Shown here in pieces: positions 14,425-56,487 of a stretch of 64,000 nucleotides of DNA (its first letter is position 1; every line of letters starts with the position of its first letter). The position numbers were made by a program, and so were the translations under genes. Below the pieces are notes generated by a model, which was not told where the DNA came from, did no database searches, and saw only the letters and a list, made by a program, of their open reading frames with translations. This stretch comes from an uncultured Candidatus Peribacteria bacterium (GTDB lineage: Bacteria > Patescibacteriota > Gracilibacteria > Peribacterales > Peribacteraceae), in the NCBI GenBank assembly GCA_964533375.1, contig CAZHLW010000003.1, positions 17,823 through 81,822 on the forward strand, in the 5' to 3' direction.

Positions 14425-14721
14425 GGAGGCTTTGAACTTAGAGAAATCGAGAGCAGAACTCTTCTCGGTGAGGGTGACCATCATTTTCTTTGATGGGTGG
14501 CGCTTCGTCATCACGCGTCCGGCGCCGAGGTTGCGGGTCTTTGTGGTAGTGCGCATGACACGGATACTTGCGACATCAACCTGGTAGAACTTTGTAAGAG
14601 CGGTTTTGACATCGATCTTCGTCGCACCATTCTGGACTCTGAGCGTGTAGCTGCGTCCGGCCTTCTGGCGTTCTGCCTTTTCTGTGACGATGGGACCGAG
14701 GATGATGCGGGAGATATCCAT
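14422..14721 (-). CDS. rplW: 50S ribosomal protein L23
   Basis: 99 aa (ILGPIVTEKA...YTLRV...ATKIDVKTALTKFY). Conserved gene order. Confidence 0.9.
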   Translation of the reverse strand: MDISRIILGPIVTEKAERQKAGRSYTLRVQNGATKIDVKTALTKFYQVDVASIRVMRTTTKTRNLGAGRVMTKRHPSKKMMVTLTEKSSALDFSKFKAS

Positions 14722-14730
14722 GGGAGGGGG

Positions 14731-15474: not shown

Positions 15475-15479
15475 AAGGA

Positions 15480-39860: not shown

Positions 39861-42773
39861 TTAGACAACCCGGCGGCGGCGCATCCACGCATATCCCGCA
39901 GCCGCACCCGCAGCCATGATGGCTAATGTTGCCGGGCCCGACGCCGTGTTCTCGGGCGGCAGTCCGGTTGTCGGATCGATGACTGTTCCCGTGCCGGATG
40001 TAGCAGACGGCGTTCCGGTTGTCTGTCCCGGCTGGAACGGCAGTTCGATGACGGTGCCGGGAAGGACAGATGGAGATGCGTGCGCAAAGCGGCAAAGTGC
40101 CGTACAGGTCGAACCGGGCTGGCCGTTTTGGGAACCTTCATCACAGAGTTCGAGCGGTGTGTCGACCACGCCGTCACCGCAGCGTCCGAGCGAACAATCG
40201 GGGCGGCACTCCACATTCGGCTGCCAGAGATTTTTAGAACCGTTGTCGCACTCTTCACCGGCATCAATCCGTCCGTTTCCGCAGGCATTGAAGACGACAA
40301 TCGTCGCAGATGATGTTGATGATTCAGTATCTTCACCCGTACCAGACGACACTGACGACATAACTACAGAGAAGGGTACGGATGACCTGCCGGTCACCGG
40401 AACACTGGAAGACTGCCCGATACAACGGAGACACGGCGTCACAGTGTCTGTCACACACACGGCATTCTGCGTTGCGCAGAAATCACTGCCGCCATCTGCA
40501 CATTCGTTCCCTGTGCACATGCCGGTCAGGAACGGCTGGGAGCTGCGTGACGACCGGCTGCTGTTATTCAGCAGATATTTACAGGAGGGGGAGCAGGCAA
40601 AGCGGTTACCCTGATCTTTGAACTGCGGCTCACATTCTTCCCCGCGTTCCGGCTGCAATACGCCATCGCCGCAGAATCCTCCGTTTTGTGTGCAGGTACG
40701 GGAGCAGAGACTGTTTGGCATTCCATTTCTGTTGCCGTTATCACATTCTTCCGATCCTTCGCGCCGTCCGTTGCCGCAGACCGGAACAAATCCGGTGGAT
40801 GAAGACAGCGATACCTCGCTCTCTGCACTGCTGCGCGAGGATGAGCGGCTCGATACGACGCTGGAACTGGACCGGCTGCTACTGGAAGAACTCCTGGAGG
40901 ACGACACAGAGGATACGCGTGAGGAAGAAACGGACGAACGCCTGCTACTACTGACCGACGAAATCCTGGAAGAAGAAACGGAGGAGCGGGAGGAGGATCT
41001 GCCTGAAGAGACGGACGATGCGCGGGAGGAAGAGACCGAAGAGGACCGTAGAGATGAAGATCTATTCGATGATTGTGACGATGCAGAAGACGAGCGGGAG
41101 GAAGTGGAGGAAGACCTGGATGATGACACAGACGATGATAATGATGATTGCGATGAAGACACTGAGGACCTGCTGGAGGACACTGAAGAATGACTGCTTT
41201 GCGAAGAAGACCGCGATGAAGAGACGGAAGAGGCAGATGAGCGAGAGGAAGTGCTGCTCAGGCTGTGTGACGAACCGGATGACACGCTGGAAGAAGACCG
41301 GCTGGAGGATAATGACGATGAGCGTGATGAAGAGACGGAGGATGATCGTGAAGAAGAATGCGAAGAAGTGCTGCTTGCGGAGGAACGGGAGCTGGAACCG
41401 GTCGGACACAGATGTTGTTCCAGCAGTTCTTCAAACGTACAGGGCGTACAGGAGCTGCCATCCGGGAATTCGCTGATCGTGAGGAAATCCTTGCAGGACT
41501 GCGTGCACATCATGTCCTGCGGATCGGTACAGGAAATACAGATATCACGCCGGACACAATCGAGACAGGTATGACCCGCTGTCACACAGGAATCTTCAGG
41601 AGTACTGGCGTTTGACTGGGAATTGCCGGAAGACGCAGCACTGCTTCTGCTGCTGCTTACGCGTGATGACGACCGTGCGGATGATGCGCTGCTTGGCCTG
41701 GATCCGTTGCTGCCGGTACTACCGGTACTGCCTGTTGATCCTGTGCTTCCTGTTGTTCCGGTATCTCCGCCATCCCCTCCCGGATCCCCGCCGGGACCGC
41801 CAGGTCCGCCCGGACCGGAATCAATACCACTCGGTCCTCCGGCTGGAGTGCCGGCTGTTGCATTCCCTGCGGTTGCGTTGGTAGAAAGGGTCCCCGAAGG
41901 GATACCGGCAACGACGCCGGAAGGGGTACCCGCAGGAATACCGGTACCACCACCGCCGCCGGATCTACAAATCGAGTCCGCTTCACCCATACTTTCACTG
42001 CAAGCATAACTCCCCTCATAGTAGCCACGGGGTGAGCATCCCGCTGTTTCCGGATCACATGCGCACTTGGGATCGGTGTTGCCGGGTTCGCATGTCGCAC
42101 AGTTCTGGAAAAGACCGGTACCACATTGCGTGGGAAAGCCATCATCACTGGGATTTCCTTCACAGAAGACACATGCAAGTTTGCCGCACGTTTCCCCGGG
42201 ACTCCGGTACGAAAAATCATGACGGGAATTTGCGCTGTTTGCACAGGTCGGACAGACATCTTCACAACATTGCACGCCGGCCGGACGTGAACATTCACAG
42301 AAAAATCCTCCCGTATCGGCATCGGTACAGGTAAGGCCGGCTTTACACGTTGTCCCCATGGGCATTCCTGAATTGTTCGGACCTCTGAAACAACAGGTGA
42401 AATTACATTTATCGCCTAATTTACCCGGTTGTATGATGCCGGCTTCATCTACCACACACGTAGGGGTATCGGGATCGCAGAAGTTTGTGACAATACACGC
42501 ACCCGCCTGGCAGGTTCCAGCCTGCCCGTTCACATTACATTGTGCATTATTGTTTCTCCGGCATATGCCCGCACCACAGGGATTCGTCGGACCCATATAG
42601 GTATACTCGGGTGGACAGTTGCACTGGTTGTCTATGGGCGATGTCGTACAAACCGTCGTGGGATTTGCCGTAATAATGGCCGTTACCGGCGTCTCTTTCT
42701 GCTGCAACCGCACCGTCACAAAAACCGTGAGTGCAACAAGCGGCAGGAGAATGAAAAGAAAGCGACGATCCAC
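39861..42773 (-). CDS. Giant Cys-rich/Ser-rich modular surface protein, paralog A
   Basis: 970 aa. In order: N-terminal hydrophobic segment, Cys-dense head, Gly/Pro/Thr and Ser-rich spacers, two pairs of CGNG..E..EECDNG / CGDG...E.C repeats, and the C-terminal PPENTASGPATLAIMAAGAAAGYAWMRRRRVV. Confidence 0.8.
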   Translation of the reverse strand: MDRRFLFILLPLVALTVFVTVRLQQKETPVTAIITANPTTVCTTSPIDNQCNCPPEYTYMGPTNPCGAGICRRNNNAQCNVNGQAGTCQAGACIVTNFCDPDTPTCVVDEAGIIQPGKLGDKCNFTCCFRGPNNSGMPMGTTCKAGLTCTDADTGGFFCECSRPAGVQCCEDVCPTCANSANSRHDFSYRSPGETCGKLACVFCEGNPSDDGFPTQCGTGLFQNCATCEPGNTDPKCACDPETAGCSPRGYYEGSYACSESMGEADSICRSGGGGGTGIPAGTPSGVVAGIPSGTLSTNATAGNATAGTPAGGPSGIDSGPGGPGGPGGDPGGDGGDTGTTGSTGSTGSTGSTGSNGSRPSSASSARSSSRVSSSRSSAASSGNSQSNASTPEDSCVTAGHTCLDCVRRDICISCTDPQDMMCTQSCKDFLTISEFPDGSSCTPCTFEELLEQHLCPTGSSSRSSASSTSSHSSSRSSSVSSSRSSSLSSSRSSSSVSSGSSHSLSSTSSRSSASSVSSSRSSSQSSHSSVSSSRSSVSSSQSSLSSSVSSSRSSSTSSRSSSASSQSSNRSSSLRSSSVSSSRASSVSSGRSSSRSSVSSSRISSVSSSRRSSVSSSRVSSVSSSRSSSSSSRSSSSVVSSRSSSRSSAESEVSLSSSTGFVPVCGNGRREGSEECDNGNRNGMPNSLCSRTCTQNGGFCGDGVLQPERGEECEPQFKDQGNRFACSPSCKYLLNNSSRSSRSSQPFLTGMCTGNECADGGSDFCATQNAVCVTDTVTPCLRCIGQSSSVPVTGRSSVPFSVVMSSVSSGTGEDTESSTSSATIVVFNACGNGRIDAGEECDNGSKNLWQPNVECRPDCSLGRCGDGVVDTPLELCDEGSQNGQPGSTCTALCRFAHASPSVLPGTVIELPFQPGQTTGTPSATSGTGTVIDPTTGLPPENTASGPATLAIMAAGAAAGYAWMRRRRVV
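40794..41399 (-). repeat. Ser-rich low-complexity coding tract of paralog A (residues 459-660)
   Basis: About 200 aa of irregular (S3-5-[RVLQT])n. It is mirrored on the plus strand by spurious Asp/Glu-rich ORFs. Confidence 0.85.
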
Positions 42774-42788
42774 GGCAGGAAGTGTAGC

Positions 42789-45700
42789 TTAGAATTTCTT
42801 CCGTCGCATCCACGCAAAGCCCGCTGCAGCTCCTGCAGCCATAATGGCAATGGTGGCGGGACCCGACGCCGTGTTTTCAGGCGGATCGAGCATATCTGCC
42901 GGGATGACATCGACTGTTCCGGTCACCTGTCCCTCCAGAGGATTGTCCGGAGCCGGAGTGAACGGCAGTTCAATTACCGTTGCGGGCAGGACCGACGCAT
43001 CAGACGGCCTGCGGCATAGAGACGTACAGAGCGATCCCAACAATCCGTTTTGTGATCCCAGATCACACAGTTCCAGCGGCGTATCCACTACACCATCCCC
43101 GCAGCGGCCGAATGTGCAGTCCGGACGGCAGAATGCATTGGCACGGACGGAGTTCAGTACGCCATCATCACACTGTTCACCGGGATCGAAGCGCCCGTTG
43201 CCGCAATTGGCCGCGGCAATGAAAACGGCGGAAGAAGCGGATGAAGATCGGCCTGCAAAACTCCGGGAGGATACATTGAAGGATGACGGCCTGAAGGGGG
43301 GTTTAGACGGATCATTGGGAACACAGAGGATGCAGGGAACCGCAGCGTCCTGCACACACGTGGCATCCTGCGCACCGCAGAATTCTGATCCCCCAAGGCT
43401 GCATTCGATGCCGGAACAGATGCCCGGATCTTCCTCGACAACCAAAACCGGGGCAGATGAACGCTGAGAGGAATAGATGTACCGACAACTCTGCGAGCAG
43501 GCGAGCGGCGCATTGTTGGACACAAGCGAGGGTTCGCAATCCTCCCCCAAACGGGCCTGCACAATGCCATCGCCGCATGATGCACGCGTGAAACGGCAGG
43601 CAGTACTGCACAGACTGTTTCTGCCGCCATTCAGGGCGCCGTCATCACATTCTTCGATTCCTTCGCGGCGGTTATTGCCGCAGGTGCTGGTGCGCAAAGA
43701 GGAAGAATGCCCGGAAATAAGGCGGCAGGTATTCGGGTTACAGTTGGAAGCGGGATCTGTCAGGTTGGGTTCGCAGTTTTCCCCGATGAGCGATTCGATG
43801 ATGCCATCACCGCATTCCCCTCCTTCAATTCTGCAGCTGCCGTTACAGCCGTCATCGTTCCGGGTGTTGCCGTCGTCACATTCTTCGCTGCATTCGCGGG
43901 TGCCATTTCCACAAATGTTCATGCAGGAATTTGGGGAAGAAGACGAGTCTGATGCAGGAAACTCAGAACAGCTGATACAGGGCAAATCGCCAATCGCCGT
44001 ACAGAAAGGACGATTCACAGAAGCGCAGAATGCCTGTGCTGCAGGATTGTCGCAGGCAGCGGGATCGCAAAGATTGGACAGACCGGATGACGTACTTCCT
44101 GCAGAGCCGTTGCTGCCGTTTGATCCGCTGGAACCATTTGATCCGGTACTTCCGGTAGATCCATTCGAAGCACCCGAGCCGTTGCTGCCGTTTGATCCGG
44201 CCGAAGAAAGGTTCTGCGTACAAACCTGACAATTACTAAAACCGCAACCCTGCAACGGTCCGCCACAGAAGAGGCCGACGCAGCAGTAGCCAAAAGTTGC
44301 CGACGACACAGAAGACAGGCTGGACGAAGAGCTGGCAGATGATGTGCTGCTTTGGGAGGATATTGATGATGATTGAGACGAGGACTGACTACTGCTCTGG
44401 GAAGATGATTGTGATGATGACACGGACGAAGAGCTGGCGGATGACCTGCTGCTCTGGGAGGAAGAGCGGGACGAAGAAACGGACGATGAAAAACGCGAAG
44501 AGACCGATGATGCGCTACTGCTTTGTGATGACGCCGATGATACGGAAGAGAAGCTACCGGACGATACAGAGGAAGATGAACTGGAAGAAACCGATGAAGA
44601 GCGTGATGCTGAAGAATTGCTGCTTCCTCCGGACGATGATCCTCCGCTGCTGGGACAGGCTGCAGGCTCATTCAAAACCTGCTGCACGGTGCAGGGAGTA
44701 CACGCCGCTCCATCCGGATAGCGGTTGGTGACAATAATATTCGTACAGGATTGTGTGCAGGGATCATTCGGTCCGGCATTGGGGCAAGACACACACGTCT
44801 GTCTGGTTGTACAGTCCGCACAGGCACGGCCGGGTGCTGTACAGTTGATAGAGGATTGTGATGAACTTTGGGATGATACGGACGATGCGGATGATGCAGA
44901 TGACGAACGGGAAGATTGTGAAGAAACCGAGGAAGAGCTGCGGGACGAACTTCTGGAGCTGCTGGCAGATGAACGCGAACTTTGGGATGATGCTGAAGAC
45001 GCACTGCTTGCGCACGGACAGACCGGCACTTGCGTATAGCCGTTTCCCGCTCCACTGCAGGCATCAAAATAATTCACCGTCGCATAATCCTTGCCGGAAT
45101 CCGCGGTCAGTGTCATGGTGTTCGTACCGCCTCCGTCGCAACAGCCGGGGCCTGACCACGTGGTTGTAAATTTTACCTTTCCGCAGCTATCCGCAAAATT
45201 ACAGTCTGTGCTCTCGGTGGTACTGCAGGATCCTGCTGCCAGAAGATCTGCGGATGTTTTCCCCAGAGAGAGATTGATGCTTGTGGCGACCGCGGTGTTC
45301 TGATGAAACGCATTGCCTCCTCCGCCCGCACACGTACAACTCAAAAGCGGTTGTCCCGCAGTACAGACTCCCGATTTACACTGACTTTCCGTTTTGTTCT
45401 GACAGTTATAAGTGCTGCAGGGTGTGTTTTCAGTAACTGCCGGATGCGTGCAGGAACCGCCGGAGCAAATATCATTGGTGCAGGGATTATTGTCATTACA
45501 GTTTGTAGCCTGGTTTTGGGTGGTGCATTGTCCGGAAGACGGTAGCTGTTGGCAGTTACGCGGGAACGTACATCTGCCACCCGAACAAATGTAATCCGCA
45601 GGGCAATCTGCACTGGTGCCACAGGTATGTACCATGGGAAGTTCCGCAATTGCCACACACCGGACAGCAGCCGACACCCCTTTCCAGCAGCCGGGAAAGG

Positions 45701-46181: not shown

Positions 46182-46187
46182 TTTCTC

Positions 46188-49100
46188 TTAGCGGCGACGG
46201 CGTCTCCATGCATAGCCCGCCGCCGCACCCGCCGCCATAATCACCAGCGTTGCGGGACCTGTGGCTGTTGTTGCCGGTGGCTGTGTTGTGCTTCCGGTAG
46301 TGATATCGAAGGAGCCGGTCACCTGGCCCTGCAGAGCGGTATTTCCATTTGTCGGCATGAACGGCAGATCAATCACCATTGCGGGAAGGACTGTAGTATC
46401 CGATACACGGCGGCAGAGCGTGGTGCAGGAAGAAATCTCCAATCCGTTTTGCGAGCCATCGTCACACGTTTCAAGCGGCGTATCCACAATACCGTCGCCG
46501 CAGCGGCCGAAGGTACAGTCCGGACGGCAGAATGCATTCGGGCGCATGCTATTGATGAGCCCTTCATCACACTGTTCTCCCGGATCAAAGCGACCGTTAC
46601 CACAGTTTGTGTTGGCAATCGGAGCAGCAGACGAAGCGGATGATGATTTCTTCGAGGAAGCTGCAGAGGTAAATCTCAAACGGGCATCCGGTCTGAAAGT
46701 GGATATACCCGGATCGTTGGGAACGCAGAGGATACAGGGAAGCGCAGCATCCCCTACACAGGAAGCATCCTGTAACCCGCAGAATTCCGAGCCTCCGAGC
46801 GCACATTCGGTGCCGGAGCACATGCCGGGAAGATCATTGGTTGCCACAAGAGATGCCGATGATTGCTGTGGCGAATAGAGGAAATGACACTGGGCGTCGC
46901 ACGCAAATGGCGCGTTTTTGGACACAAGCGACGGCTCACAATCTTCTCCAAACCGCTTTTGCACAACATTGTCCCCGCACGCTGCACGCGTGAAACGGCA
47001 GGCAGTACTGCACATACTGTTCCTGCCGCCATTGAGCGGACCGTCGTCACATTCTTCCGTGCCTTCGCGGCGGTTATTGCCGCAAATAATCGAGCGGAGA
47101 GAGGAGTGCGATGAAGGATTGAGACGGCAGGTTTGTGCATGACAGTCCGAGGACGGATCGGTCAGAGCCGGCTCACAGGTTTCCCCAAGCAGGGATTCGA
47201 TGATGCCATCACCGCATTCCCCTCCTTCAATGAGGCAACTGCCGTTGCAGCCGTCATTGTTTTTGGTATTACCGTCATCACATTCTTCAGCGCATTCGCG
47301 GGTGCCGTTGCCGCAAATATGCAGGCAGGAATTTTTGGAAGAGGATGATGGAGGAGTGCCGGAACAGCTGATACAGGGCAGATCATTGATGGGTGTACAG
47401 AACGGGCGATCCACAGAAACACAGAATGCCTGTGCTTCGGGATTCTCGCAGGCAGCGGGATCGCAGTTATTCACGAAGATATCTGTAGAGCTGACGGATG
47501 ATCCGCCAGAACTGGTAGAACTTCTTGAACTGCTTGATGCCGATGATGCACTCGATGCACTGGAATTGCTGTTACTTGCCGAGGAACTGGAAGGCTGCGG
47601 ACACAGCTGGCAGCTCTGTAGGGTACAGCCATAGAGCGGACCACCGCAGAAGGGTCCGATACAGCAGTAACCGCCGGCGGATGAGCTGGAGGATGAACTG
47701 CTCGAACGTGATGAAGACTGGGATGAGCCGGAGGATGCCGAAGAACTACTGTTGGAAGACGACTGGGATGAGCTGCTTGCTGATGAGCCCGAAGAAACAG
47801 ATGACTGCGAGGAGGAAGACCGTGAAGAGGTTGATGAGGCGGAAGAGGCAGACGAACTGCTGGATGACAGCGATGATCTGGATGATGAATATGATGAAGC
47901 GGAGGAACTCCGGGACGATGCGCTGCTGGCAGAAGACACCGACGAGGAGCCCGAAGACTGGGAAGAGGTTGATGATGAAGAAGAAGCGGAAGACTGACTG
48001 CTTCCTCCGGACGATGAGCTCGCACTGCCGGGACAAAGCGGTGCCTCATTCAGAACCTGATTGACCGTACAGGGAACGCAGGATGCTCCATCGGGGAAAC
48101 GGCTTGTTGTAATGAAATTCACACAAGATAATGTGCAGGCATCATGCGGGCCGGCATTGGGGCAGGTTACACAAATATTTCTGGTCGTACAGTCCGCACA
48201 TGCATGACCACGGGTTGTACATCGCACAGAAGATGATGAGCTCCGGGAGGAAGCCGATGATTGCGAAGACGTGGACGATACGGATGATGAGCTTGAAGAC
48301 GACTGCGAAGAAACTGATGAGGAACTTCTGCTGGATGATGCGCTGCTTCGTGAAGACGGCGAACTTTGTGAAGAAGCAGATGACGAACTTCCTCCGCACG
48401 GACAGACCGGAATCTGTTTGTTGCCGGTACCTTGTCCGTTACAGGCATCGTGAAAATCAAGTGTGGCATAATTTTGTCCTGGGTCCGCTGTCAGGATCAT
48501 GGTAGTAGATCCGCCTCCGTCGCAGCACCCCGGACCGGACCAGGTATTTGTGTATTCCACTTTGCCGCAGCTATCCGCAAAGTTACAACTGGTGCTGTCG
48601 TTATTGGTGCAGGATCCTGCAGCCAGAAGAGATGCCGGACGGTTAAAAGAAAGATCCACAAGAGACGCGATATTGTTCATGCGGGTGAAATCTCCGGCTG
48701 CCACGAAGCAGCTGCAATCCTGTCTCTTTTTGCAGGATCCCGTATAGCATTTCTGTTTATTACAATCGTTAGCGGGAAGTGTGTCACAAAGATCAGATCC
48801 ATCCGGCACATCCTGCAGCTGACATGTTCCGCCGATACATTTATTCGGACGACAACTATTGCCTGATGCCGGACAATCAGAATCGACGCTGCATGCCTGT
48901 GCGGGAAGAGGGCAACTGATGGTAGCTGTCAGATTATTGGTATCGCAGTGCGTACTTGTTAAACACCCGTATGCCGACATGCCATATTGTGGAACTATGA
49001 CGCCGTCTCCCACATAGCCAAACACATTCTGATTGCCATTCCATGAATAGCCGGGATGAACGATACATTGTTTTGCCGCTATACACGCAGGGGCTAATTC

Positions 49101-49439: not shown

Positions 49440-49496
49440 ATCATAGCTAAAAAACAGAGAGTCCTGTTTTTTTCTTTCAGCTTACCTTGACGAAAA

Positions 49497-52400
49497 TCAT
49501 GCTTTTATGCGGCGACGCCTCCACGCATATCCGGCAGCCGCGCCAGCCGCCATGATGGCAATGGTCGCAGGACCGGATGCCGTGTTTTCCGGAGGTGGAC
49601 CATTTTCACCCGGAATGACATCGATAATACCGGTTGTATCAGTCGGAATATCGGTGACCGGCGTAAACGGTAATTCGATGACCGTTGCAGGAAGGACGGT
49701 ATCGGGATCATTGCTGAAGCGGCAGAGAACGGTACAGGTGGAACCGAGTAATCCATTGTGCGATCCCAGATCACACAGTTCCAGCGGCGTATCCACTACA
49801 CCATCACCGCAGCGGCCGAACGTGCAGTCCGGGCGGCAGAACGCATTCGGTCTGTCGGTGTTCCGGGCACCTTCATCGCACTGTTCACCGGCATCAAAGA
49901 AGCCGTTTCCGCAGTTAGGACGCAACACAAAGAGCGCAGAAGAGACAGAAGATGCAAGCGAACTGCGGGATGAACGCGAGGAGCGTGGCACAAAGTTCGG
50001 TCTGAACGGCGGCTTGGACGGATCATTGGGAACGCAGAGAATACAGGGAGCTGCAGCATCTGCCACACAGGACGCATCCTGCGCACCGCAGAATTCCGAT
50101 CCCCCCAGACCACATTCATTACCCCCACAGATAGTATCCACAAGCAGCGGCGTCGATGATGACCGTGAGGATGACGACATTGATCCGTAGATGTAACGGC
50201 AACGGGGAGAACAGGCGAGCGGGGCATTTTTGGACACAAGCGAGGGTTCGCAATCCTCTCCGAAACGGGCCTGCACAATGCCGTCGCCGCATGATGCACG
50301 CGTGAAGCGGCAGGCGGTACTGCACAGACTGTTTCTGCCGCCGTTCAAGGAACCATCATCACATTCTTCTGTTCCTTCACGCCGGTTGTTGCCACAGATT
50401 GCAATGCGCAGGGATGAGCTGGCACCGCCTTTCAGGCGGCAGGTGACGTCATCACAATCCGATGATGGATCGGTGAGGTTGGGTTCGCAGTTTTCGCCGA
50501 TGAGCGATTCGATGATGCCGTCGCCGCATTCCCCTCCCTCAATGTAACAGCTGCCGTTGCAGCCGTCGTTATTCCGGGTGTTGCCGTCATCACATTCTTC
50601 AGCGCATTCACGAGAGCCGTTGCCGCAGATGTGGAGGCAGGAGTTGATGGAGGAAGACTGGCTCGAGCTGGAAAATGCGGATGATGGTGAAGCTGCAGAG
50701 GATGTGACTGCCGTACAGATAATACAAGGTAAAGCGCTGATGGGAGTACAGATCGGGCGATTGACTGATGCACAGAAGGCAAGGGCAGCAGGGTTTTGAC
50801 AGGCGAAGGGATCGCAGAGGTTCGATATCCCGGATGAGGTGCTTCCTGCAGAGCCATTGCTTCCGCCCGATCCATTCGATCCATTGGAACCGTTGCTGCC
50901 ATTGGACCCAGTAGAGCCAGCAGAATTGGCAGACGACTGCTGCGTGCAGATCTGGCAGTTTGAAAGCGTGCAGCCGACAATAGGTCCGCCGCAGATGGGG
51001 CCGATGCAGCAGTACCCTGCACCGACAGATGACGACGAAGAGCGGCTGGAAGAGTTCAGTGATGAAGAGGATTGTGACGATGTTGATGAAGCTGAAGAAG
51101 ATTGGCTACTGCTCTGTGATGATGATTGCGAGGAGGACTGTGATGACTGACTGCTGCTTTGGGAAGAAGCAGATATTGAGGAAGAACGGGATGATAGTGA
51201 TGAAGAAGAAAATGAGCGGCTACTGCTCAGTGATGATGATTGCGAGGAAGAGCGGGAAGAGGATTGTGACGACGCACTGCCGGAAGAGACAGATGATGAA
51301 CGTGAGGATGCGGACGAAGACCGTGACGATGCCGAAGAATTACTACTTCCCCCGGATGACGATCCCCCACTGCTGGGACAGGCTGCAGGCTCATTTAAAA
51401 CCTGTTGCACCGTGCAGGGAATACAGGCCGCACCGTCGGGGTAGCGGTTGGTGACAATAATATTCGTACAGGATTGTGTGCAGGGATCATTCGGTCCGGC
51501 ATTGGGACAGTTCAGACAGATTTGTCTGGTTGTACAATCGCTGCACGAACGTCCGGCCGGTGTACACCTGAAGGAAGATTGTGATGAGCTCTGGGATGAG
51601 GATATGGATGATGTAGAGGAGATGCTTGATGAGGAGCGGGATGAGACAGACGAAGAGGAAGCGGAGCTGCGTGAAGAGCTTCTGGAGGAGACGCTGCTGG
51701 AGGAGCGTGAACTCTGGGAGGATCGGGAGGAAGCGCTGCTGGTACAGGGACAGACCGGTACTTGGGTATAGCCGTTTCCTGCTCCGCTGCAGGCATCGAA
51801 ATAATTCACAGTGGCGTAATCTTTCCCGGCATCCGCAGTCAGTGTCATGGTGTTGGTGCCGCCTCCGTCGCAACAGCCGGGACCCGACCAGGTGGTGGTA
51901 AATTTCACTTTTCCGCAGCTGTCCGCAAAATTGCAGTCCGTGCTCTCGGTGGTACTACACGATCCTGCCGCCAGAAGATCTGCGGTTGGCTTGCCAAGAG
52001 AAAGATTAATACTGGTTGCGAGCGTCCTGCTTGGGTTAAAGGCATTGCCGCCTCCACCTGCACACGTACAACTCAAAAGCGGCTGCCCCGCAGTGCAGAC
52101 TCCCGATTTACACTGACTCTCCGTTTTGTTCTGGCAGTTATACGTACTGCAGGGCGTATTTTCTGCAACTGAAGGATGTGTGCATATTCCACCGGAACAA
52201 ATATCATCGGTGCAGACATTGTTATCATTACAGTTGAGGTTTGTCTGACATTGCGAAGAAGACGCACTGGAAGAAGAAGCTGCCGGCACCGGTTGACAGG
52301 TGGAATACGAGGGGCCCATGGGCGAATTATTCTGTATGCATTTGGACGGATATGGCCTATCCGGCAGAGATCCTCCCTGATAACAATCACTGTCCGATCC

Positions 52401-52955
52401 ACATTGTTCGCCATCGGGTATAAATGAATATGGTCCGTTTGCACCATTGGAACACTGTCTTTTGGCAATATTGCCTGTGCAAATCAGTGTGTGCGACGGA
52501 TCACCTGTCCATTGTTGATAGGCACCATTCCAGCCATTGGGCTGCCAGCCTCCATTGGAAAAAGTAAATGCAGGAGTATCGACATCACAAGGAAGGAATG
52601 TGAGCTTCTCAGCGGTATTCACACTCCCCCAATATCCATGACTGGCTGCATAGGCATACTCATCCTGGCTACCATAACGGGTGCAGGTCAGGGGTTCGGA
52701 TCCTACGCTGCAATAGTATTTCCACCGCGGATTTCCTCCGCATTCGTTAATACACTTCATATCATCTTTCCCTGCACCAATAACATTCATAGATGTCGGT
52801 GCTCCATTGCCACACTGGGGAACATCAATGACAGCTGCTACAAGACGAACGTGTTGTTCTTTGTTTTGAGGCAAAAAGACAAAAAGAAGAACTGCAAAAA
52901 GCGGAAGTAGTAAACCAAGGGTGATGCCATTTTTTTTCCAAAAATAGAACAACAT
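49497..52955 (-). CDS. Giant Cys-rich/Ser-rich modular surface protein, paralog D
   Basis: 1152 aa. The C-terminus is PPENTASGPATIAIMAAGAAAGYAWRRRRIKA. Long blocks are near-identical to paralog B. Confidence 0.8.
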   Translation of the reverse strand: MLFYFWKKNGITLGLLLPLFAVLLFVFLPQNKEQHVRLVAAVIDVPQCGNGAPTSMNVIGAGKDDMKCINECGGNPRWKYYCSVGSEPLTCTRYGSQDEYAYAASHGYWGSVNTAEKLTFLPCDVDTPAFTFSNGGWQPNGWNGAYQQWTGDPSHTLICTGNIAKRQCSNGANGPYSFIPDGEQCGSDSDCYQGGSLPDRPYPSKCIQNNSPMGPSYSTCQPVPAASSSSASSSQCQTNLNCNDNNVCTDDICSGGICTHPSVAENTPCSTYNCQNKTESQCKSGVCTAGQPLLSCTCAGGGGNAFNPSRTLATSINLSLGKPTADLLAAGSCSTTESTDCNFADSCGKVKFTTTWSGPGCCDGGGTNTMTLTADAGKDYATVNYFDACSGAGNGYTQVPVCPCTSSASSRSSQSSRSSSSVSSRSSSRSSASSSSVSSRSSSSISSTSSISSSQSSSQSSFRCTPAGRSCSDCTTRQICLNCPNAGPNDPCTQSCTNIIVTNRYPDGAACIPCTVQQVLNEPAACPSSGGSSSGGSSNSSASSRSSSASSRSSSVSSGSASSQSSSRSSSQSSSLSSSRSFSSSSLSSRSSSISASSQSSSQSSQSSSQSSSQSSSQSSSASSTSSQSSSSLNSSSRSSSSSVGAGYCCIGPICGGPIVGCTLSNCQICTQQSSANSAGSTGSNGSNGSNGSNGSGGSNGSAGSTSSGISNLCDPFACQNPAALAFCASVNRPICTPISALPCIICTAVTSSAASPSSAFSSSSQSSSINSCLHICGNGSRECAEECDDGNTRNNDGCNGSCYIEGGECGDGIIESLIGENCEPNLTDPSSDCDDVTCRLKGGASSSLRIAICGNNRREGTEECDDGSLNGGRNSLCSTACRFTRASCGDGIVQARFGEDCEPSLVSKNAPLACSPRCRYIYGSMSSSSRSSSTPLLVDTICGGNECGLGGSEFCGAQDASCVADAAAPCILCVPNDPSKPPFRPNFVPRSSRSSRSSLASSVSSALFVLRPNCGNGFFDAGEQCDEGARNTDRPNAFCRPDCTFGRCGDGVVDTPLELCDLGSHNGLLGSTCTVLCRFSNDPDTVLPATVIELPFTPVTDIPTDTTGIIDVIPGENGPPPENTASGPATIAIMAAGAAAGYAWRRRRIKA
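51021..51374 (-). repeat. Main Ser-rich tract of paralog D (residues 528-645)
   Basis: Seen directly in the translation. Confidence 0.85.
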
Positions 52956-52995
52956 TCTGCATCCATCCTACGTATGCCGATACAAAAAGAAAATG

Positions 52996-55900
52996 TTATC
53001 TCCTGCGCCGCATCCATGCATAGCCTGCCGCTGCACCCATCGCCATGATGGCAATCGTTGCAGGACCGGATGCCGTCGTAGCCGGCGGCTTCGTACCGCT
53101 GACCCCTTGTCCAACCGCTGTGGACCCGTCAACAGATCCTGGCTGGTCATCGAATGTGAGCGACGGTGTGAACGGCAGCTCAATCACACTGGCCGGGAGA
53201 ACGCCGGACGTAGTGCCATTCTGACAGAAGGCATTGCAGGAAGATGTGAGCAATCCGTTTTGCGAACCGTCGTCGCAGGTTTCGAGCGGTGTATCAATCA
53301 CCGTGTCACCGCAACGCGCAAATGTGCAGTCAGGACGGCAGAACGCATTGGGCTTCAGGGAGTTTTCCAGCCCATCATCACATTCTTCGCCGCTTCCCAA
53401 TTCCCCGTTTCCGCAGCCGGCCATTGCCACAAACAACGGAGTGGACGATGCAGAAGACGAGGATGATGTCTTGAACGATGCTTGTGTCGATGAGTTGAAA
53501 ACCAGCGTCGTATCCGGCCTGAAAGGGGGCTTGCTCGGGTCGTTCGGAATACAGAGGATGCAGGGAAGAGCGGCATCATCAATACAAGATGCATCCTGCG
53601 CGCCGCAGAATTCAGCACCTCCCAGGCTGCATTCCTGGCCGGAGCAGATGTTGGGGATGTCGTCGGGAACGAGGGTGGGTGTGGAAGAATCTGCAAAGTA
53701 GCGATAGTGACAATTGTTATCGCATGCCAGAGGCGCAAACTCGGATATGAGAGACGGTTCACAGTCTTCTTTCAGCAGAGATTCAACAACACCGTTTCCG
53801 CAGGAACCCTGAGTACGACGGCAGGAGGTATTGCAGATGCTGTTTGGGCCGCCATTCAAGGAACCGTCATCGCATTCTTCTGTTCCTTCGCGGCGGTTAT
53901 TGCCGCAAACGGGAAGCGGACTGACAGAGGAATTGGAGGAAGGATTGAGACGGCAGGTATTCGGATTGCAGTCAGAAGAAGGATCAGTCAGAACCGGTTC
54001 ACAGGTTTCCCCGATGAGCGATTCGATAATGCCGTCTCCACATTCCCCTCCTTCTACGAAGCAGCCGCCGTTGCAGCCGTCGTTGTTTCTGGTATTGCCG
54101 TCGTCACATTCTTCAGTGCATTCGCGGGTGCCGTTGCCGCAGATATGGAGGCAGGAATTCACCGACGATGTACCGCCACCCTGAGATGAAGCCGATGAAG
54201 ATGCGGGATCACAGCTGCCGTCATAACATGCTTCTCCTTGCGGACAGTCGTTGTCATCATCACAGTCATCAGGACTACAGGTGCCATTTGTGCACATTTC
54301 TCCTTCGGGACAATCGTTGTTGTCGTTGCATCCATCCAGACAGACAAGACACGGGAGGTTTAACGTGGGTACGCAGACTGGGCGGCCGAGCGCGTTGCAG
54401 AAGTTCTGAGCAGCGGGATTATTGCAGACGAGAGGATCGCAGATGTTATTGGGAGTAGAGGAGCTGCTTGCAGAGCTGCGGGAACTACTGGAAGACGATG
54501 ACACCGTACACGCCTGACAGCTGTCATGGGCACAACCCATCACCGGACCGCCGCAGAATGGACCGATGCAGCAGAAGCCGGGATTTTCGGGTTCACATGT
54601 TCCATTGTCCGTACACTGCTGGCCGGCGGGACAATCGTTATCGCTGTCGCAATCGTCAACACACGCACCATCTTCACACTGCTGATTTGCCGGACAATCG
54701 TTATCAGTCTGACAACTGTCGGTGCACTGGTGATCTTCGCACACCTGGCCCTCCGGGCAATCCGTGTCTCTGTTGCAGCTGTTGGGCTGGCTCACGGATG
54801 ATCCGGCCGATCCGGTGGAACCGGCACTGCTGTTACTTTGCGTACTGCCATTGCTGCCGTTCGATCCGGTGGAACCGCCTGAATTATTGGATCCGCCGGA
54901 GCTGTTACTGCTCCCGGAATGATTCGAGCCGCCGGAAGAACCGGAACTATTGGACCTGCTGCTGCCTGCAGATGACGCAGGACAGACATTGCTGCATCCA
55001 TTTGGACCGCAACTCGGGCAAGTGGGATCATTGCCGCAGCAGAACGGACTGCCAAGAAAACAACTGTATGCAACGTTTGGCAGGAAACAGCTGGAGGTAT
55101 TCGATCCGGTGGAACCGCTACTCGCTGTGGATCCGGCAGACGCATTGCTTGCAGTGCTGTTATTTCCTCCGGAGGAGGCACTGTTTGCCGCAGCGCAGGC
55201 TGCAGCCTGCGTCTGACTTTCCTGCGGGGTACACGGGGTGCAGGCACTTCTGTCCGGGAATTCATGAGGAGTGGGTGATCCGTCCAAGCGGTTAAATCCG
55301 CACACCGCCCCACCCTGACCATTGATTCTGCTGCTACACCAGCCGACAGCGAAGTTCGGACAGTTCGGACCCATCGGCCAGCACTCGGAGTTATTACAGA
55401 TACAGGCCTGTGTCTGCTGACAGTCATTGCAGCGGAACCCGGGATCGGGACAGGCCGCAGCTGATGATTGGGAGGAGGACCGTGACGCACCGGACGATGT
55501 GCTGGAAGCACACAGTGGAGGTTCATTCAGCAGCTCTGTCACCGAACAAAGTGAGCAAGTATCGCCATTTCCGTCTTCAAAGTTATACACCTGTCTGCAC
55601 GTCATCGATCCTGTGGACGGACAAAAATTCGGCCGGTTGGGATCCTGCACAATCATACAAGGCTGACCTGCCGGGCAAACGTAACACGTGCATTCGAGAG
55701 TGACACTCACCAAATGACAATCGTTGCAGCTCTCGCCCTCAGGTGTACAGGCAACCGATGATTGCTGTTGTGATGTTCCCGCTGATGATGATTGCCCCTG
55801 TGATTGTTGTGAGGATGATTGCCTGGATGATGACCTCGCGCTGGATGCCGAACTGCTCTGGCCAGCTGAACTTTGAGCCGATGAACTCTGTGCAGCCTGT

Positions 55901-56487
55901 GATGATGACTGCTGGCCTGCAGATGATTGCGCTGCAGACGAACTGGCAGGGTTTCCGGCAGAGGAAGCCTGACCCTGGCTGGAGGTAGGATTATTATTTG
56001 TACCGGCGGAGCTGCCGCCTCCGGGATTCGAAAAAGCCTGGCCCGCAGACGAGGACGATGTCGGTTCACAGCAGCAATCCGCTCTGCCGGGACACGCACC
56101 CCATCCGGCAGGACAGCCATTCGCTGCTGGATATGCACACGCACCTCCACCTCCGCCCGACGGAGCACACGTCCCGTTCGTACACTGCGACCCATTGCCG
56201 CAAAACTGCGACGCAGGTGAAATGCCTCCGCCTGGCATTTGCCAACAGCATGATCCGCCACACGATCCTCCATCTGCGGACGGGGCGGGATTTCCCTGTC
56301 CGTCGGTCGGACACCAGGGGAGCCCCGGGCTGCCACAACCGCCTGTCTGGGCCGTCAGTGTCTGCTGTTTTTGAAACTGCCGCACCGTTATGACGGATAC
56401 AACAGCAACGCCCAGTACCAGCAGAAGAAGGAAAGGTCTCTTCACAAGGCTGCAGTGTAGCGAAAAAAGAACGCACGCACGATTCAC
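52996..56487 (-). CDS. Giant Cys-rich/Ser-rich modular surface protein, paralog E
   Basis: 1163 aa. It carries extra D-x-D-C-P-x-G-x-x-C repeats. The C-terminus is PPATTASGPATIAIMAMGAAAGYAWMRRRR. Confidence 0.8.
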   Translation of the reverse strand: MNRACVLFSLHCSLVKRPFLLLLVLGVAVVSVITVRQFQKQQTLTAQTGGCGSPGLPWCPTDGQGNPAPSADGGSCGGSCCWQMPGGGISPASQFCGNGSQCTNGTCAPSGGGGGACAYPAANGCPAGWGACPGRADCCCEPTSSSSAGQAFSNPGGGSSAGTNNNPTSSQGQASSAGNPASSSAAQSSAGQQSSSQAAQSSSAQSSAGQSSSASSARSSSRQSSSQQSQGQSSSAGTSQQQSSVACTPEGESCNDCHLVSVTLECTCYVCPAGQPCMIVQDPNRPNFCPSTGSMTCRQVYNFEDGNGDTCSLCSVTELLNEPPLCASSTSSGASRSSSQSSAAACPDPGFRCNDCQQTQACICNNSECWPMGPNCPNFAVGWCSSRINGQGGAVCGFNRLDGSPTPHEFPDRSACTPCTPQESQTQAAACAAANSASSGGNNSTASNASAGSTASSGSTGSNTSSCFLPNVAYSCFLGSPFCCGNDPTCPSCGPNGCSNVCPASSAGSSRSNSSGSSGGSNHSGSSNSSGGSNNSGGSTGSNGSNGSTQSNSSAGSTGSAGSSVSQPNSCNRDTDCPEGQVCEDHQCTDSCQTDNDCPANQQCEDGACVDDCDSDNDCPAGQQCTDNGTCEPENPGFCCIGPFCGGPVMGCAHDSCQACTVSSSSSSSRSSASSSSTPNNICDPLVCNNPAAQNFCNALGRPVCVPTLNLPCLVCLDGCNDNNDCPEGEMCTNGTCSPDDCDDDNDCPQGEACYDGSCDPASSSASSQGGGTSSVNSCLHICGNGTRECTEECDDGNTRNNDGCNGGCFVEGGECGDGIIESLIGETCEPVLTDPSSDCNPNTCRLNPSSNSSVSPLPVCGNNRREGTEECDDGSLNGGPNSICNTSCRRTQGSCGNGVVESLLKEDCEPSLISEFAPLACDNNCHYRYFADSSTPTLVPDDIPNICSGQECSLGGAEFCGAQDASCIDDAALPCILCIPNDPSKPPFRPDTTLVFNSSTQASFKTSSSSSASSTPLFVAMAGCGNGELGSGEECDDGLENSLKPNAFCRPDCTFARCGDTVIDTPLETCDDGSQNGLLTSSCNAFCQNGTTSGVLPASVIELPFTPSLTFDDQPGSVDGSTAVGQGVSGTKPPATTASGPATIAIMAMGAAAGYAWMRRRR
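55753..56058 (-). repeat. Ser/Gln/Ala-rich tract of paralog E (residues 144-245)
   Basis: Seen directly in the translation. A second Ser/Gly/Asn tract lies at about 54784-54975. Confidence 0.8.

What the first reader, a model, noticed from the sequence alone, without database searches (positions are those of the whole stretch)
39861..39953. Near-invariant C-terminal tripartite motif (PP[EA][NT]TA[ST]GPAT-hydrophobic-RRRR) on all five giants: candidate uncharacterised sorting signal
The last roughly 30 residues of the five paralogs are:
- A: PPENTASGPATLAIMAAGAAAGYAWMRRRRVV
- B: PPENTASGPATIAIMAAGAAAGFAWMRRKKF
- C: PPATTATGPATLVIMAAGAAAGYAWRRRRR
- D: PPENTASGPATIAIMAAGAAAGYAWRRRRIKA
- E: PPATTASGPATIAIMAMGAAAGYAWMRRRR

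The other copies lie at 42789-42881, 46188-46280, 49497-49589 and 52996-53088. A short polar motif, an Ala/Gly-rich helix and a basic tail is the architecture of LPXTG (sortase), PEP-CTERM (exosortase), PGF-CTERM (archaeosortase) and GlyGly-CTERM (rhombosortase) signals. The motif itself ([NT]TA[ST]GP) matches none of those consensus sequences as I remember them. This segment is far better conserved than the neighbouring sequence, which argues for recognition by a processing enzyme rather than a plain membrane anchor. No sortase, exosortase or rhombosortase gene is visible in this window.
Basis: partly seen in the sequence, partly recalled or inferred. Interest (0 to 1): 0.7.

Follow-up and report, generated by a model that had tools for sequence, protein, structure and literature searches.

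The report
Peribacteria C-terminal surface-protein sorting tail
The five giant proteins end in a real, strongly conserved "motif, membrane helix, arginine" tail that hundreds of large surface proteins share across one uncultured bacterial class (Candidatus Peribacteria); it fits no catalogued sorting signal and probably directs how these adhesin-like proteins are attached to the cell surface.

Summary
Five tandem minus-strand genes (970-1163 aa) end in PP[EA][NT]TA[ST]GP-AT[LI][AV]IMA[AM]GAAAG[YF]AW-RR[RK].. The tail is under strong purifying selection (pN/pS 0.12 at saturated pS 0.67), not homogenised by gene conversion.

It is not confined to these paralogs:
- A degenerate DNA pattern finds it in 66 loci of 47 species-level genomes, nearly all labelled Candidatus Peribacteria/Peregrinibacteria.
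- An exhaustive profile search finds 448 protein clusters; in the 150 listed the match is always at the extreme C-terminus.

The universal core is [ST]GP + A[VI]MAAGAAAG[WFY]AW + RR[RK].

Carriers have diverse head domains on a DUF4215 Cys-rich stalk. No curated sorting-signal model matches the motif. Public pipelines label a few fragments PEP-CTERM or MYXO-CTERM through the helix and Arg part only.

There is no processing enzyme in the window. A conserved Peribacteria-specific sortase clade exists elsewhere in these genomes but is not convincingly linked.

Most likely this is an uncatalogued lineage-specific sorting signal, with sortase the leading candidate enzyme. An uncleaved GxxxG membrane anchor remains a serious rival.

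The parts
39861..42773 (-). Giant A, 970 aa: N-terminal hydrophobic segment, Cys-rich head, Ser-rich tracts, DUF4215/myxo Cys-rich repeats, linker, tail
   Evidence: ORF and translation; TIGR02232 repeat hit; N-terminal hydrophobic segment
42789..46181 (-). Giant B, 1130 aa, same architecture
   Evidence: DUF4215, TIGR02232
46188..49439 (-). Giant C, 1083 aa, same architecture (P0071 appears to be this protein from an alternative start)
49497..52955 (-). Giant D, 1152 aa, same architecture
52996..56487 (-). Giant E, 1163 aa, same architecture (P0068 appears to be this protein)
39861..39959 (-). Tail A: PPENTA (39942-39959), SGP (39933-39941), hydrophobic ATLAIMAAGAAAGYAWM (39882-39932), basic RRRRVV (39864-39881), stop
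42789..42884 (-). Tail B: PPENTA, SGP (42858-42866), ATIAIMAAGAAAGFAWM (42807-42857), RRKKF, stop
46188..46280 (-). Tail C: PPATTA, TGP (46254-46262), ATLVIMAAGAAAGYAW (+R) (46203-46253), RRRR, stop
49497..49595 (-). Tail D: PPENTA, SGP (49569-49577), ATIAIMAAGAAAGYAW (+R) (49518-49568), RRRIKA, stop
52996..53088 (-). Tail E: PPATTA, SGP (53062-53070), ATIAIMAMGAAAGYAWM (53011-53061), RRRR, stop
40026..40067 (-). Second conserved element VLP.TVI[ED]LPF.P, 34-38 residues upstream of [ST]GP. The copies in B-E lie at 42951-42992, 46350-46391, 49656-49697 and 53161-53202.
   Evidence: family-wide enrichment of 77 of 184 carriers against 3 of 384 background windows

Best explanation
The tail is a lineage-specific (class Candidatus Peribacteria, a Candidate Phyla Radiation lineage) tripartite C-terminal sorting signal for large, adhesin-like, Cys-rich surface proteins.

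Proposed mechanism:
1. The protein is exported through Sec by its N-terminal hydrophobic segment.
2. The C-terminal Ala/Gly-rich segment, which is only marginally hydrophobic, together with the Arg/Lys cluster stops transfer. This leaves the body outside, held at the membrane on a Pro-rich linker.
3. A genome-encoded factor then reads the signal. It reads the class-wide [ST]GP and GAAAG/W helix, and also the short extracellular motif, which comes in three genome-specific versions (PxGxTGP, PPxT[TS]x[ST]GP, GxL[SN][DN][ST]GP).
4. That factor most likely cleaves at or next to [ST]-G and fixes the protein to the envelope.

The leading candidate enzyme is the conserved Peribacteria-specific sortase, whose gene is encoded between tsaD and lgt. 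It would cut [ST]|G and link the protein to peptidoglycan.

What is shown: the existence of the signal, its strict C-terminal position, its spread, purifying selection, uniformity of the upstream motif within each genome, the lack of a match to known signal models, and the presence of an intact sortase clade in the lineage.

What is inferred: that the tail is cleaved at all, and that sortase is the enzyme. I put about 0.35 absolute probability on sortase, within 0.55 for a processed signal of any kind.
For: The tail is real and non-random. Purifying selection, not gene conversion: tail core pN/pS 0.12 at pS 0.67, against 0.72 for the linker. Taxonomic spread: 66 loci in 47 species-representative genomes, nearly all labelled Peribacteria or Peregrinibacteria. 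Family size: 448 clusters at E<=1e-3, with the match at the extreme C-terminus in every listed case. Carriers have varied heads (FG-GAP, DUF11, Vgb-lyase and LVIVD propellers, disintegrin, H-lectin, LamG, CARDB, collagen). The upstream extracellular motif is uniform within a genome in 16 of 16 genomes with more than one tail, although by the overall class frequencies two tails would share a class only about half the time. The hydrophobic segment is marginal (crude Hessa sum +2.0 to +2.5 kcal/mol over 17 residues). That is close to the S. aureus protein A LPXTG signal (+1.2) and the Peribacteria LAPTG signal (+2.0), and unlike the proteins' own N-terminal anchor (-2.2). Sortase: PF04203 at 64-66 bits with intact His, Cys and Arg; a 37-member clade in which every source-named member is Peribacteria or Peregrinibacteria, with conserved synteny in all six contexts examined. 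The Ca. Peribacter riflensis gene table lists two further srtA hits, one directly beside a pappalysin-like protein, the label the paper gives its Cys-rich repeat proteins. It contains none of the words exosortase, archaeosortase, CAAX, prenyl or abortive, and its only rhomboid hit is at noise level. T-G or S-G is present in every tail recovered; G was enforced by the search pattern and [ST] partly so, and class I reads [AVI]-G-x-T-G, one residue away from the LAxTG form.
Against: No cleavage data exist. Sortase adjacency is no better than chance: 2 of 66 tail loci, and these form one orthologous arrangement. L-P is absent, and class II and III motifs have polar residues where LPXTG has Leu-Pro. 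A near-invariant hydrophobic segment is atypical of sortase signals. A canonical-looking PPLAPTG + TM + RR signal occurs on small proteins in two related Peribacteria genomes (L027, L031), so the sortases may have other clients. The tail is coupled to DUF4215 in 58 of 63 carriers, so part of its spread is shared ancestry of a stalk-and-anchor cassette rather than free modularity. Uniformity of the motif within genomes could also come from lineage-specific paralog expansion.
Confidence: 0.55

Rival explanations
1. The tail is a permanent, uncleaved C-terminal membrane anchor. [ST]-G-P caps the start of the helix at the outer membrane face. The invariant G-A-A-A-G is a GxxxG helix-packing motif that drives dimerisation or hetero-oligomerisation of these surface proteins, or docking to a membrane partner. 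The Trp and the Arg cluster fix the inner interface and the N-out/C-in topology.
For: GAAAG, or G-small-small-small-G, is essentially invariant even in the looser variants, as are the aromatic-x-W and RR elements. Conservation is highest inside the hydrophobic segment rather than in the extracellular motif. No processing enzyme is linked by gene neighbourhood. The tail travels with one stalk module, DUF4215.
Against: The segment is short (about 17 residues) and only marginally hydrophobic, far weaker than the same proteins' N-terminal anchor. Simple anchors normally drift in sequence, yet this one is held at pN/pS 0.12 across saturated paralogs and across a whole class. A passive anchor does not explain a genome-specific extracellular motif that is shared by diverged paralogs.
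Confidence: 0.3
2. The tail is a divergent member of an already catalogued non-sortase signal family (MYXO-CTERM/CPBP myxosortase, PEP-CTERM/exosortase, or CGP-, PGF- or GlyGly-CTERM), processed by the corresponding enzyme family.
For: It has the same tripartite layout and sits on Cys-rich-repeat stalk proteins, as MYXO-CTERM does on TraA (PMC11980579). Isolated tails score 16-19 bits against PEP_CTERM (cutoff 16), and two of the five window tails score 16.6-17.9 against GC_trans_RRR (cutoff 15.85). JGI and NCBI label a few fragments MYXO-CTERM or PEP-CTERM.
Against: These HMM alignments cover only the hydrophobic and Arg part (PEP_CTERM profile positions 4-24, which skips P-E-P). TIGR03901 (MYXO-CTERM) stays below its cutoff, and full-length proteins give no such hits. 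MYXO-, JDVT-, Synerg- and CGP-CTERM are defined by an invariant Cys that is required for cleavage (10.1101/2023.06.07.544157; PMC11980579), and none of the tails inspected has a Cys in the signature motif. The words exosortase, archaeosortase, CAAX, prenyl and abortive do not occur in the Ca. P. riflensis gene table, and the rhomboid hit is noise. Unannotated membrane proteins near the giants and near the sortase hit none of these enzyme models.
Confidence: 0.07
3. The similarity is a by-product of recent duplication or gene conversion among five tandem paralogs, or of low-complexity Ala/Gly/Arg composition, and has no function of its own.
For: The genes are tandem paralogs, and the tail is rich in Ala and Gly.
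Against: Synonymous divergence in the tail is saturated (pS 0.67) and equal to the rest of the genes, while non-synonymous change is suppressed. The pattern has zero expected chance hits. The same tail recurs in 47 genomes and 448 clusters.
Confidence: 0.01

Closest known systems
LPXTG-type cell-wall sorting signal and sortase (TIGR01167; PF04203)
   Same: Signature motif, then hydrophobic segment, then basic tail at the extreme C-terminus of large secreted adhesin-like proteins, preceded by a Pro-rich linker. A Thr/Ser-Gly dipeptide sits where sortase cuts. The hydrophobic segment is marginal. Intact sortase genes are conserved in the lineage.
   Different: There is no Leu-Pro. Three alternative upstream motifs exist. 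The motif abuts the hydrophobic segment with no spacer. The hydrophobic segment is near-invariant and contains GxxxG. The HMM score is marginal and reaches the cutoff for only two isolated tails (16.1-16.4 against 15.9). The sortase fits none of classes A-F. No neighbourhood link was found.
MYXO-CTERM and myxosortase MrtX; Myxococcus TraA-type proteins (TIGR03901, TIGR03382; PMC11980579)
   Same: Tripartite tag at the end of proteins built as a variable head plus a Cys-rich acidic repeat stalk (TIGR02232/DUF4215). Many paralogs per genome. Ala/Gly-rich helix and Arg cluster. Some fragments already carry this label in JGI.
   Different: The invariant Cys needed for cleavage by MrtX is absent and is replaced by Ser/Thr. 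TIGR03901 is below cutoff. No CPBP protease appears in the reference gene table. The tag is described for Myxococcota and, from the abstract of PMC11980579, reaches the surface through the type II secretion system, whereas this host is a Candidate Phyla Radiation bacterium.
PEP-CTERM and exosortase (TIGR02595)
   Same: Short motif, then TM, then Arg cluster. Isolated tails scrape past the permissive 16-bit cutoff. NCBI names one Peregrinibacteria fragment this way.
   Different: The alignment omits the P-E-P positions, and the tails have no P-E-P. No exosortase is listed in the reference gene table.
CGP-CTERM (Thermococcales) and PGF-CTERM or GlyGly-CTERM
   Same: The signature tripeptide, including x-G-P, sits directly at the start of the helix. 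Overall length is about 25 residues. (The resemblance in motif position is from my own knowledge.)
   Different: CGP-CTERM is defined by an invariant Cys (10.1101/2023.06.07.544157). None of these models was reported in the NCBIfam scans. Their known enzymes (CPBP, archaeosortase, rhombosortase) were not found.
Large Cys-rich extracellular proteins of Ca. Peribacter riflensis (Anantharaman et al. 2016, PMC4736985)
   Same: The protein family appears to be the same: twenty large Cys-rich exported proteins per genome including a 14-gene cluster, weak myxo Cys-rich repeat and pappalysin similarity, and strain variability.
   Different: The main text of that paper contains no occurrence of 'C-terminal', 'LPXTG' or 'transmembrane', and its one occurrence of 'anchor' lies in the reference list. 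The tail and its motif classes are not described there.

Membership tests
Generic tripartite C-terminal sorting domain (Haft-type: signature motif, TM segment, Arg-rich cluster) | Short signature motif followed by a hydrophobic segment and a basic cluster at the extreme C-terminus | tested here: met
   All five window tails and every listed profile hit end 24-34 residues after [ST]GP.
Generic tripartite C-terminal sorting domain | Shared by multiple proteins per genome that otherwise differ in architecture | tested here: met
   There are five copies in this window and up to three tails detected per species-representative genome. Heads are diverse. Caveat: 58 of 63 carriers also share DUF4215.
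Generic tripartite C-terminal sorting domain | A cognate processing enzyme that co-occurs across genomes | not testable with these tools
   Whole-genome phylogenetic profiling could not be run. Only a lineage-level overlap with a Peribacteria sortase clade was seen.
LPXTG / sortase signal (TIGR01167) | L-P-x-T-G (or LAxTG, NPxTG and similar) pentapeptide | tested here: not met
   The window has [NT]-T-A-[ST]-G. The family consensus is P-x-G-x-T-G-P. Only the T/S-G is shared.
LPXTG / sortase signal (TIGR01167) | HMM score above the curated cutoff | tested here: inconclusive
   Where the model was reported, the window tails score 13.2-13.9 against the 15.9 cutoff. Two of 10 other Peribacteria tails reach 16.1-16.4 when scanned alone. 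There is no hit on full-length proteins.
LPXTG / sortase signal (TIGR01167) | Sortase encoded in the same genome | tested here: inconclusive
   There is none in the 64-kb window. Sortases are present in related Peribacteria genomes. The rest of the window's own genome was not available.
MYXO-CTERM (TIGR03901 / TIGR03382) | Invariant Cys in the signature motif, required for cleavage by myxosortase | tested here: not met
   None of the tails inspected has a Cys in the signature motif. The requirement is documented in PMC11980579 and 10.1101/2023.06.07.544157.
MYXO-CTERM (TIGR03901 / TIGR03382) | HMM score above the curated cutoff | tested here: not met
   TIGR03901 scores 12-19 bits against a cutoff of 20. 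TIGR03382 is marginal (16.6 and 17.9 against 15.85) for two isolated window tails only, over the TM and RRR part.
MYXO-CTERM (TIGR03901 / TIGR03382) | CPBP-family myxosortase in the genome | tested here: inconclusive
   The words CAAX, prenyl and abortive do not occur in the Ca. P. riflensis gene table. No hit was found among the local unannotated membrane proteins. No genome-wide HMM scan was possible.
PEP-CTERM (TIGR02595) | P-E-P signature at the start of the domain | tested here: not met
   The HMM alignments start at profile position 4, and the tails have no P-E-P.
PEP-CTERM (TIGR02595) | Exosortase (EpsH/Xrt) in the genome | tested here: inconclusive
   The words exosortase and archaeosortase do not occur in the reference gene table, and nothing was found locally. 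This is not a genome-wide HMM test.
CGP-CTERM | Invariant Cys-Gly-Pro signature | tested here: not met
   The tails inspected have Ser or Thr in place of Cys. No CGP-CTERM model was reported.
DUF4215 / myxo_disulf_rpt proteins (PF13948, TIGR02232) | Cys-rich acidic repeat C..G..E.CD.G | tested here: met
   TIGR02232 scores 21.6-50.5 bits against a cutoff of 20.8 in all five giants. DUF4215 hits occur in four of the five, below the Pfam gathering score, and in 58 of 63 carriers at E<=0.001.

The most novel reading that the evidence does not exclude
The tail defines a new protein-sorting system. The [ST]GP + GAAAG-helix + Arg signal would be read inside the membrane by a so far unrecognised processing enzyme family specific to Peribacteria, not a sortase, exosortase or archaeosortase, rhombosortase or CPBP protease. 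The three genome-specific extracellular motif classes would then reflect co-evolution with that enzyme.
Probability: 0.2. Interest if true: 0.8.

Novelty: new variant of a known kind. Interest (0 to 1): 0.58.

Why it matters
Candidate Phyla Radiation bacteria such as Peribacteria are uncultured and are thought to live attached to other cells. The 2016 genome paper proposes that their giant, strain-variable, Cys-rich surface proteins function in attachment. How those proteins are fixed to the envelope is unknown.

A class-wide C-terminal signal with hundreds of clients gives three things:
- a sequence handle for listing the surface proteome of these organisms;
- a correction to current automated labels (PEP-CTERM and MYXO-CTERM), which imply enzymes that these genomes do not appear to have;
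- a concrete, testable pairing problem (signal against sortase or an unknown enzyme) of the kind that has repeatedly revealed new sorting enzymes, including exosortase, archaeosortase, rhombosortase and myxosortase.

The three genome-specific motif versions would be a natural system for studying co-evolution of enzyme and signal.

Tried and rejected
1. Word-indexed protein searches with tail profiles returned only 36-83-aa fragments. Full-length carriers were apparently lost, so I used a DNA pattern scan and the exhaustive profile search instead.

2. The GVDTG_CTERM model (NF058571) looked promising by name. It scores only 15-18 bits against a cutoff of 29, over the helix only. Rejected.

3. 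Guilt by association. I clustered all neighbours in the 66 loci. The recurrent neighbours I examined look like housekeeping genes (for example lysyl-tRNA synthetase; RNA polymerase beta-prime, FtsH and LemA/TPM as judged from their sequences) or further tail-bearing paralogs. No dedicated enzyme emerged.

4. Sortase adjacency occurs in only 2 of 66 loci, which form one orthologous arrangement. This is roughly chance level and is not used as evidence. Giants lying 5 kb from the sortase in L069, L071 and L072 run off the loci and have no detectable homology to known carriers, so they are uninformative.

5. The idea that the sortase's membrane helix pairs with the tail's GxxxG motif: the sortase helix is only moderately conserved. 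Neither supported nor excluded.

6. The two 525- and 533-aa membrane proteins next to the giants as a candidate partner enzyme: no Pfam, NCBIfam or PDB sequence match. The AlphaFold model has pLDDT 44, so no fold search was run.

7. Literature searches for a described sorting signal in Peregrinibacteria or the Candidate Phyla Radiation found nothing.

8. The metagenome scan was not used. It would have added unlabelled loci without resolving the enzyme question.


Full report
**1. Observation**

The stretch 39861-39953 read on the minus strand gives ENTASGPATLAIMAAGAAAGYAWMRRRRVV*. Twenty tail columns are invariant.

A degenerate DNA pattern for [ST]GPxxx[AV]hMxxGAAAGxxWxRR hits the window five times against 0.00 expected from shuffles. 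No other window ORF has such an end.

Codon analysis shows the conservation is due to selection, not gene conversion:
- The 22-codon core has pS 0.67, the same saturated level as the rest of the genes, but pN 0.08, giving pN/pS 0.12.
- The adjacent 30-codon linker is nearly neutral (0.72).
- The whole genes average 0.57.
- The last Cys-rich repeat (0.32) ties with the tail as the most invariant 30-column window.

So the tail is far better conserved than its immediate neighbourhood, but it is not uniquely so within the protein.

**2. The proteins and the organism**

The giants have an N-terminal hydrophobic segment, Cys-rich regions, long Ser-rich tracts and C-terminal Cys-rich acidic repeats (TIGR02232 myxo_disulf_rpt; DUF4215).

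The window (53.7 % GC) also carries:
- a ribosomal-protein operon with secY, adk and map, as judged from the N-terminal sequences of its ORFs;
- glycosyltransferases and methyltransferases;
- an ABC-2 exporter;
- DsbA;
- three SLH-domain proteins;
- no sortase, exosortase, rhomboid or CPBP gene.

Related loci are almost all labelled Candidatus Peribacteria or Peregrinibacteria (taxonomy). Anantharaman et al. 2016 (PMC4736985) described what appear to be these same proteins in Ca. [quoted passage not shown] That paper does not describe a C-terminal motif.

**3. The tail is a class-wide element**

The DNA pattern scan of 185,579 species-representative genomes returned 66 loci from 47 assemblies. 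All are labelled Peribacteria or Peregrinibacteria, apart from three contigs of a MAG labelled only 'bacterium' and one 6-kb contig in a Dehalococcoidia MAG (L010), which is probably misbinned.

An exhaustive HMM search of 1.84 billion representative proteins found 448 clusters at E<=1e-3. In all 150 listed hits the match lies at the extreme C-terminus, on proteins up to 3,171 aa. Of the 144 listed hits not seen in earlier searches, 126 fit a generalised core pattern.

The consensus is ...P-x-G-x-[T>S]-G-P-A-[AT]-[VI]-A-[VI]-M-A-A-G-A-A-A-G-[WFY]-A-W-[MV]-R-R-[RK]-[RK]..., ending 24-34 residues after the Thr/Ser. Positions that the pattern did not enforce are also strongly conserved. Looser variants in adjacent paralogs keep G-small-small-small-G and the Arg/Lys cluster, and most keep the aromatic-x-W.

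**4. Upstream motif classes**

- class I: P-x-G-x-TGP (103 of the 184 carriers classified);
- class II: PP-x-[NT]-[TAS]-x-[ST]GP (51 of 184), which includes the window;
- class III: G-x-L-[SN]-[DN]-[ST]GP (15 of 184).

In every one of the 16 genomes with more than one detected tail, all tails belong to a single class. From the overall class frequencies, two random tails would share a class about half the time. The paralogs in this window are anciently diverged. This within-genome uniformity of an extracellular segment therefore suggests a genome-encoded reader of the signal. Lineage-specific paralog expansion is an alternative explanation.

**5. Modularity**

Tail carriers have heterogeneous heads: FG-GAP, DUF11, Vgb-lyase and LVIVD propellers, disintegrin, H-lectin, LamG, CARDB and collagen. 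However, 58 of 63 full-length carriers contain DUF4215 repeats.

The usual layout is head, then stalk (Ser-rich tracts and DUF4215), then a conserved h-[ED]-L-P-[FL] element, then a variable linker of about 30 residues, then the tail. The L-P-[FL] element occurs in 77 of 184 carriers against 3 of 384 background windows.

This is the same design as Myxococcus TraA-type proteins, which have a variable head, a Cys-rich repeat stalk and a MYXO-CTERM tag (PMC11980579). (The TraA domain order is from my own knowledge.)

**6. Comparison with curated signals**

NCBIfam release 20 models align only to the helix and Arg part, whether scanned against the five full proteins, the five isolated tails, or ten diverse Peribacteria tails:
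- PEP_CTERM scores 14-19 bits (cutoff 16) but over profile positions 4-24, which skips P-E-P.
- MYXO-CTERM TIGR03901 scores 12-19 bits (cutoff 20).
- GC_trans_RRR is marginal for two tails.
- JDVT scores at most 22 bits (cutoff 27).
- GVDTG scores at most 18 bits (cutoff 29).
- LPXTG_anchor scores 13-16.4 bits (cutoff 15.9).

MYXO-, JDVT-, Synerg- and CGP-CTERM are defined by an invariant Cys that is needed for processing (10.1101/2023.06.07.544157; PMC11980579). The tails inspected have Ser or Thr at that place and no Cys. Even so, JGI and NCBI already name a few fragments 'MYXO-CTERM' or 'PEP-CTERM sorting domain-containing protein'. I regard those labels as spill-over from permissive cutoffs.

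**7. Search for the partner enzyme**

Neighbour clustering over the 66 loci found housekeeping-type genes and further tail-bearing paralogs, but no dedicated enzyme.

One ORF, L011:5600-6373, with an orthologue in L032, is a genuine sortase. It scores 64-66 bits on PF04203 and passes only the generic sortase_fam model, falling far below the cutoffs for classes A-F. Its relatives form a clade of 37 proteins. Every member that a source names comes from Peribacteria or Peregrinibacteria, including Ca. P. riflensis.

The clade has intact AGHSSPP, LITC[YF]P and Arg motifs. Its synteny was conserved in all six contexts examined, even at 38 % identity: two unannotated genes (about 290 and 335 aa), a PKD-domain protein, tsaD, the sortase, lgt (directly adjacent or a few genes further on), RNase HII, a Mur ligase and an SLH protein.

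The P. riflensis gene table lists two further srtA hits. One is fused to an S-layer domain, and the other sits directly beside a pappalysin-like protein. The table contains none of the words exosortase, archaeosortase, CAAX, prenyl or abortive, and its only rhomboid hit is at noise level.

Against a sortase link:
- Adjacency to tail genes is at chance level.
- A canonical-looking PPLAPTG + TM + RR signal exists on small secreted proteins in two related Peribacteria genomes.
- Class II and III motifs are far from LPXTG.

In favour:
- T/S-G is present in every tail recovered.
- Class I reads [AVI]-G-x-T-G.
- The LAPTG signal also abuts its helix without a spacer.
- The tail's hydrophobic segment is as marginal as known sortase signals and much weaker than a stable anchor.

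**8. Verdict**

It is a Peribacteria-wide C-terminal tripartite signal that is not in the curated catalogue.

I consider a processed sorting signal the most likely reading (0.55). Within that, I put about 0.35 on the lineage's own sortase and about 0.2 on an unrecognised enzyme. A permanent GxxxG-mediated membrane anchor is a serious rival (0.3). A divergent member of a catalogued non-sortase family is unlikely (0.07). Artefact or gene conversion is excluded.

The novelty is a new variant of a known kind. Cleavage and the enzyme remain to be shown.

Noticed in passing
window 40026-40067, 42951-42992, 46350-46391, 49656-49697, 53161-53202 (minus strand): A second conserved element, VLP.TVI[ED]LPF.P, lies 34-38 residues upstream of [ST]GP in all five giants. 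A looser form, h-[ED]-L-P-[FL], occurs in 77 of 184 tail carriers against 3 of 384 background windows. Its function is unknown. It is too far from the helix to be a classical sortase motif.
   Followed up: partly
window 36641-38218 and 38252-39853 (plus strand); homologue at L013:3-1406: Two paralogous polytopic membrane proteins of 525 and 533 aa lie convergent with the 3' end of the giant array, and a homologue lies near a class II tail gene in L013. They have no Pfam, NCBIfam or PDB match, and the AlphaFold model has pLDDT 44. The first-loop motif YPYG..PD.[FY]DY recalls GT-C glycosyltransferases, but that comparison is from memory and untested.
   Followed up: partly
L027:2586-3182 (minus strand) and L031:4674-5258 (plus strand): Small secreted proteins in two related Peribacteria genomes end in a canonical-looking sortase signal, ...PPLAPTG, then a hydrophobic segment, then RR. 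A classical LAxTG-like signal therefore coexists with the new tail in this lineage.
   Followed up: partly
L069-L073, L075, L076 (sortase at about 10001-10800 in most): The gene order is strongly conserved around the Peribacteria sortase: a 290-aa gene, a 335-aa gene, a PKD protein, tsaD, the sortase, lgt (sometimes after inserted glycosyltransferase or unannotated genes), RNase HII, a Mur ligase, flavokinase and an SLH protein. The sortase-lgt pairing is unusual and unexplained.
   Followed up: partly
P0044, P0051 (JGI) and P0049 (NCBI): Public annotation names fragments that carry this tail 'MYXO-CTERM domain-containing protein' or 'PEP-CTERM sorting domain-containing protein', although they lack the Cys or P-E-P signatures. 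These are probably false-positive labels caused by permissive HMM cutoffs.
   Followed up: yes
L022:741-2675 (minus strand): A 644-aa Peribacteria ORF ends in a different hydrophobic and basic tail, ...TTVSTFFVMLLGTVAGWWWVRRR, with no [ST]GP or GAAAG. It may be another C-terminal signal type in the same lineage.
   Followed up: no
window 39861-56487, bodies of the five giants: The giants contain very long Ser-rich low-complexity tracts (SSSRSSS...). They sit in a window rich in glycosyltransferases and methyltransferases, with an ABC-2 exporter (35065-36614). A membrane protein whose N-terminus looks PMT-like to me also recurs near tail genes (L015, L052, L065). This suggests, without any test here, that the stalks are O-glycosylated.
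   Followed up: no
L010 (JALNYR010000148.1, 6 kb, in a MAG labelled Dehalococcoidia): This is the only tail locus assigned to a named lineage outside Peregrinibacteria. It is a short contig with coverage 0.7 according to its record name, from the same groundwater site name (OW334) as a Peribacteraceae MAG. It is probably a misbinned Peribacteria contig.
   Followed up: partly
window 14497-15882 (plus strand); L001:5172-7139 and L012:5803-7998 (minus strand): A long ORF with no family match clusters with ORFs in L001 and L012. The L001 ORF lies antisense to called ribosomal-protein genes (L3, L4, L23, L2). It is most likely a spurious antisense ORF whose similarity comes from conservation of the sense strand.
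   Followed up: no
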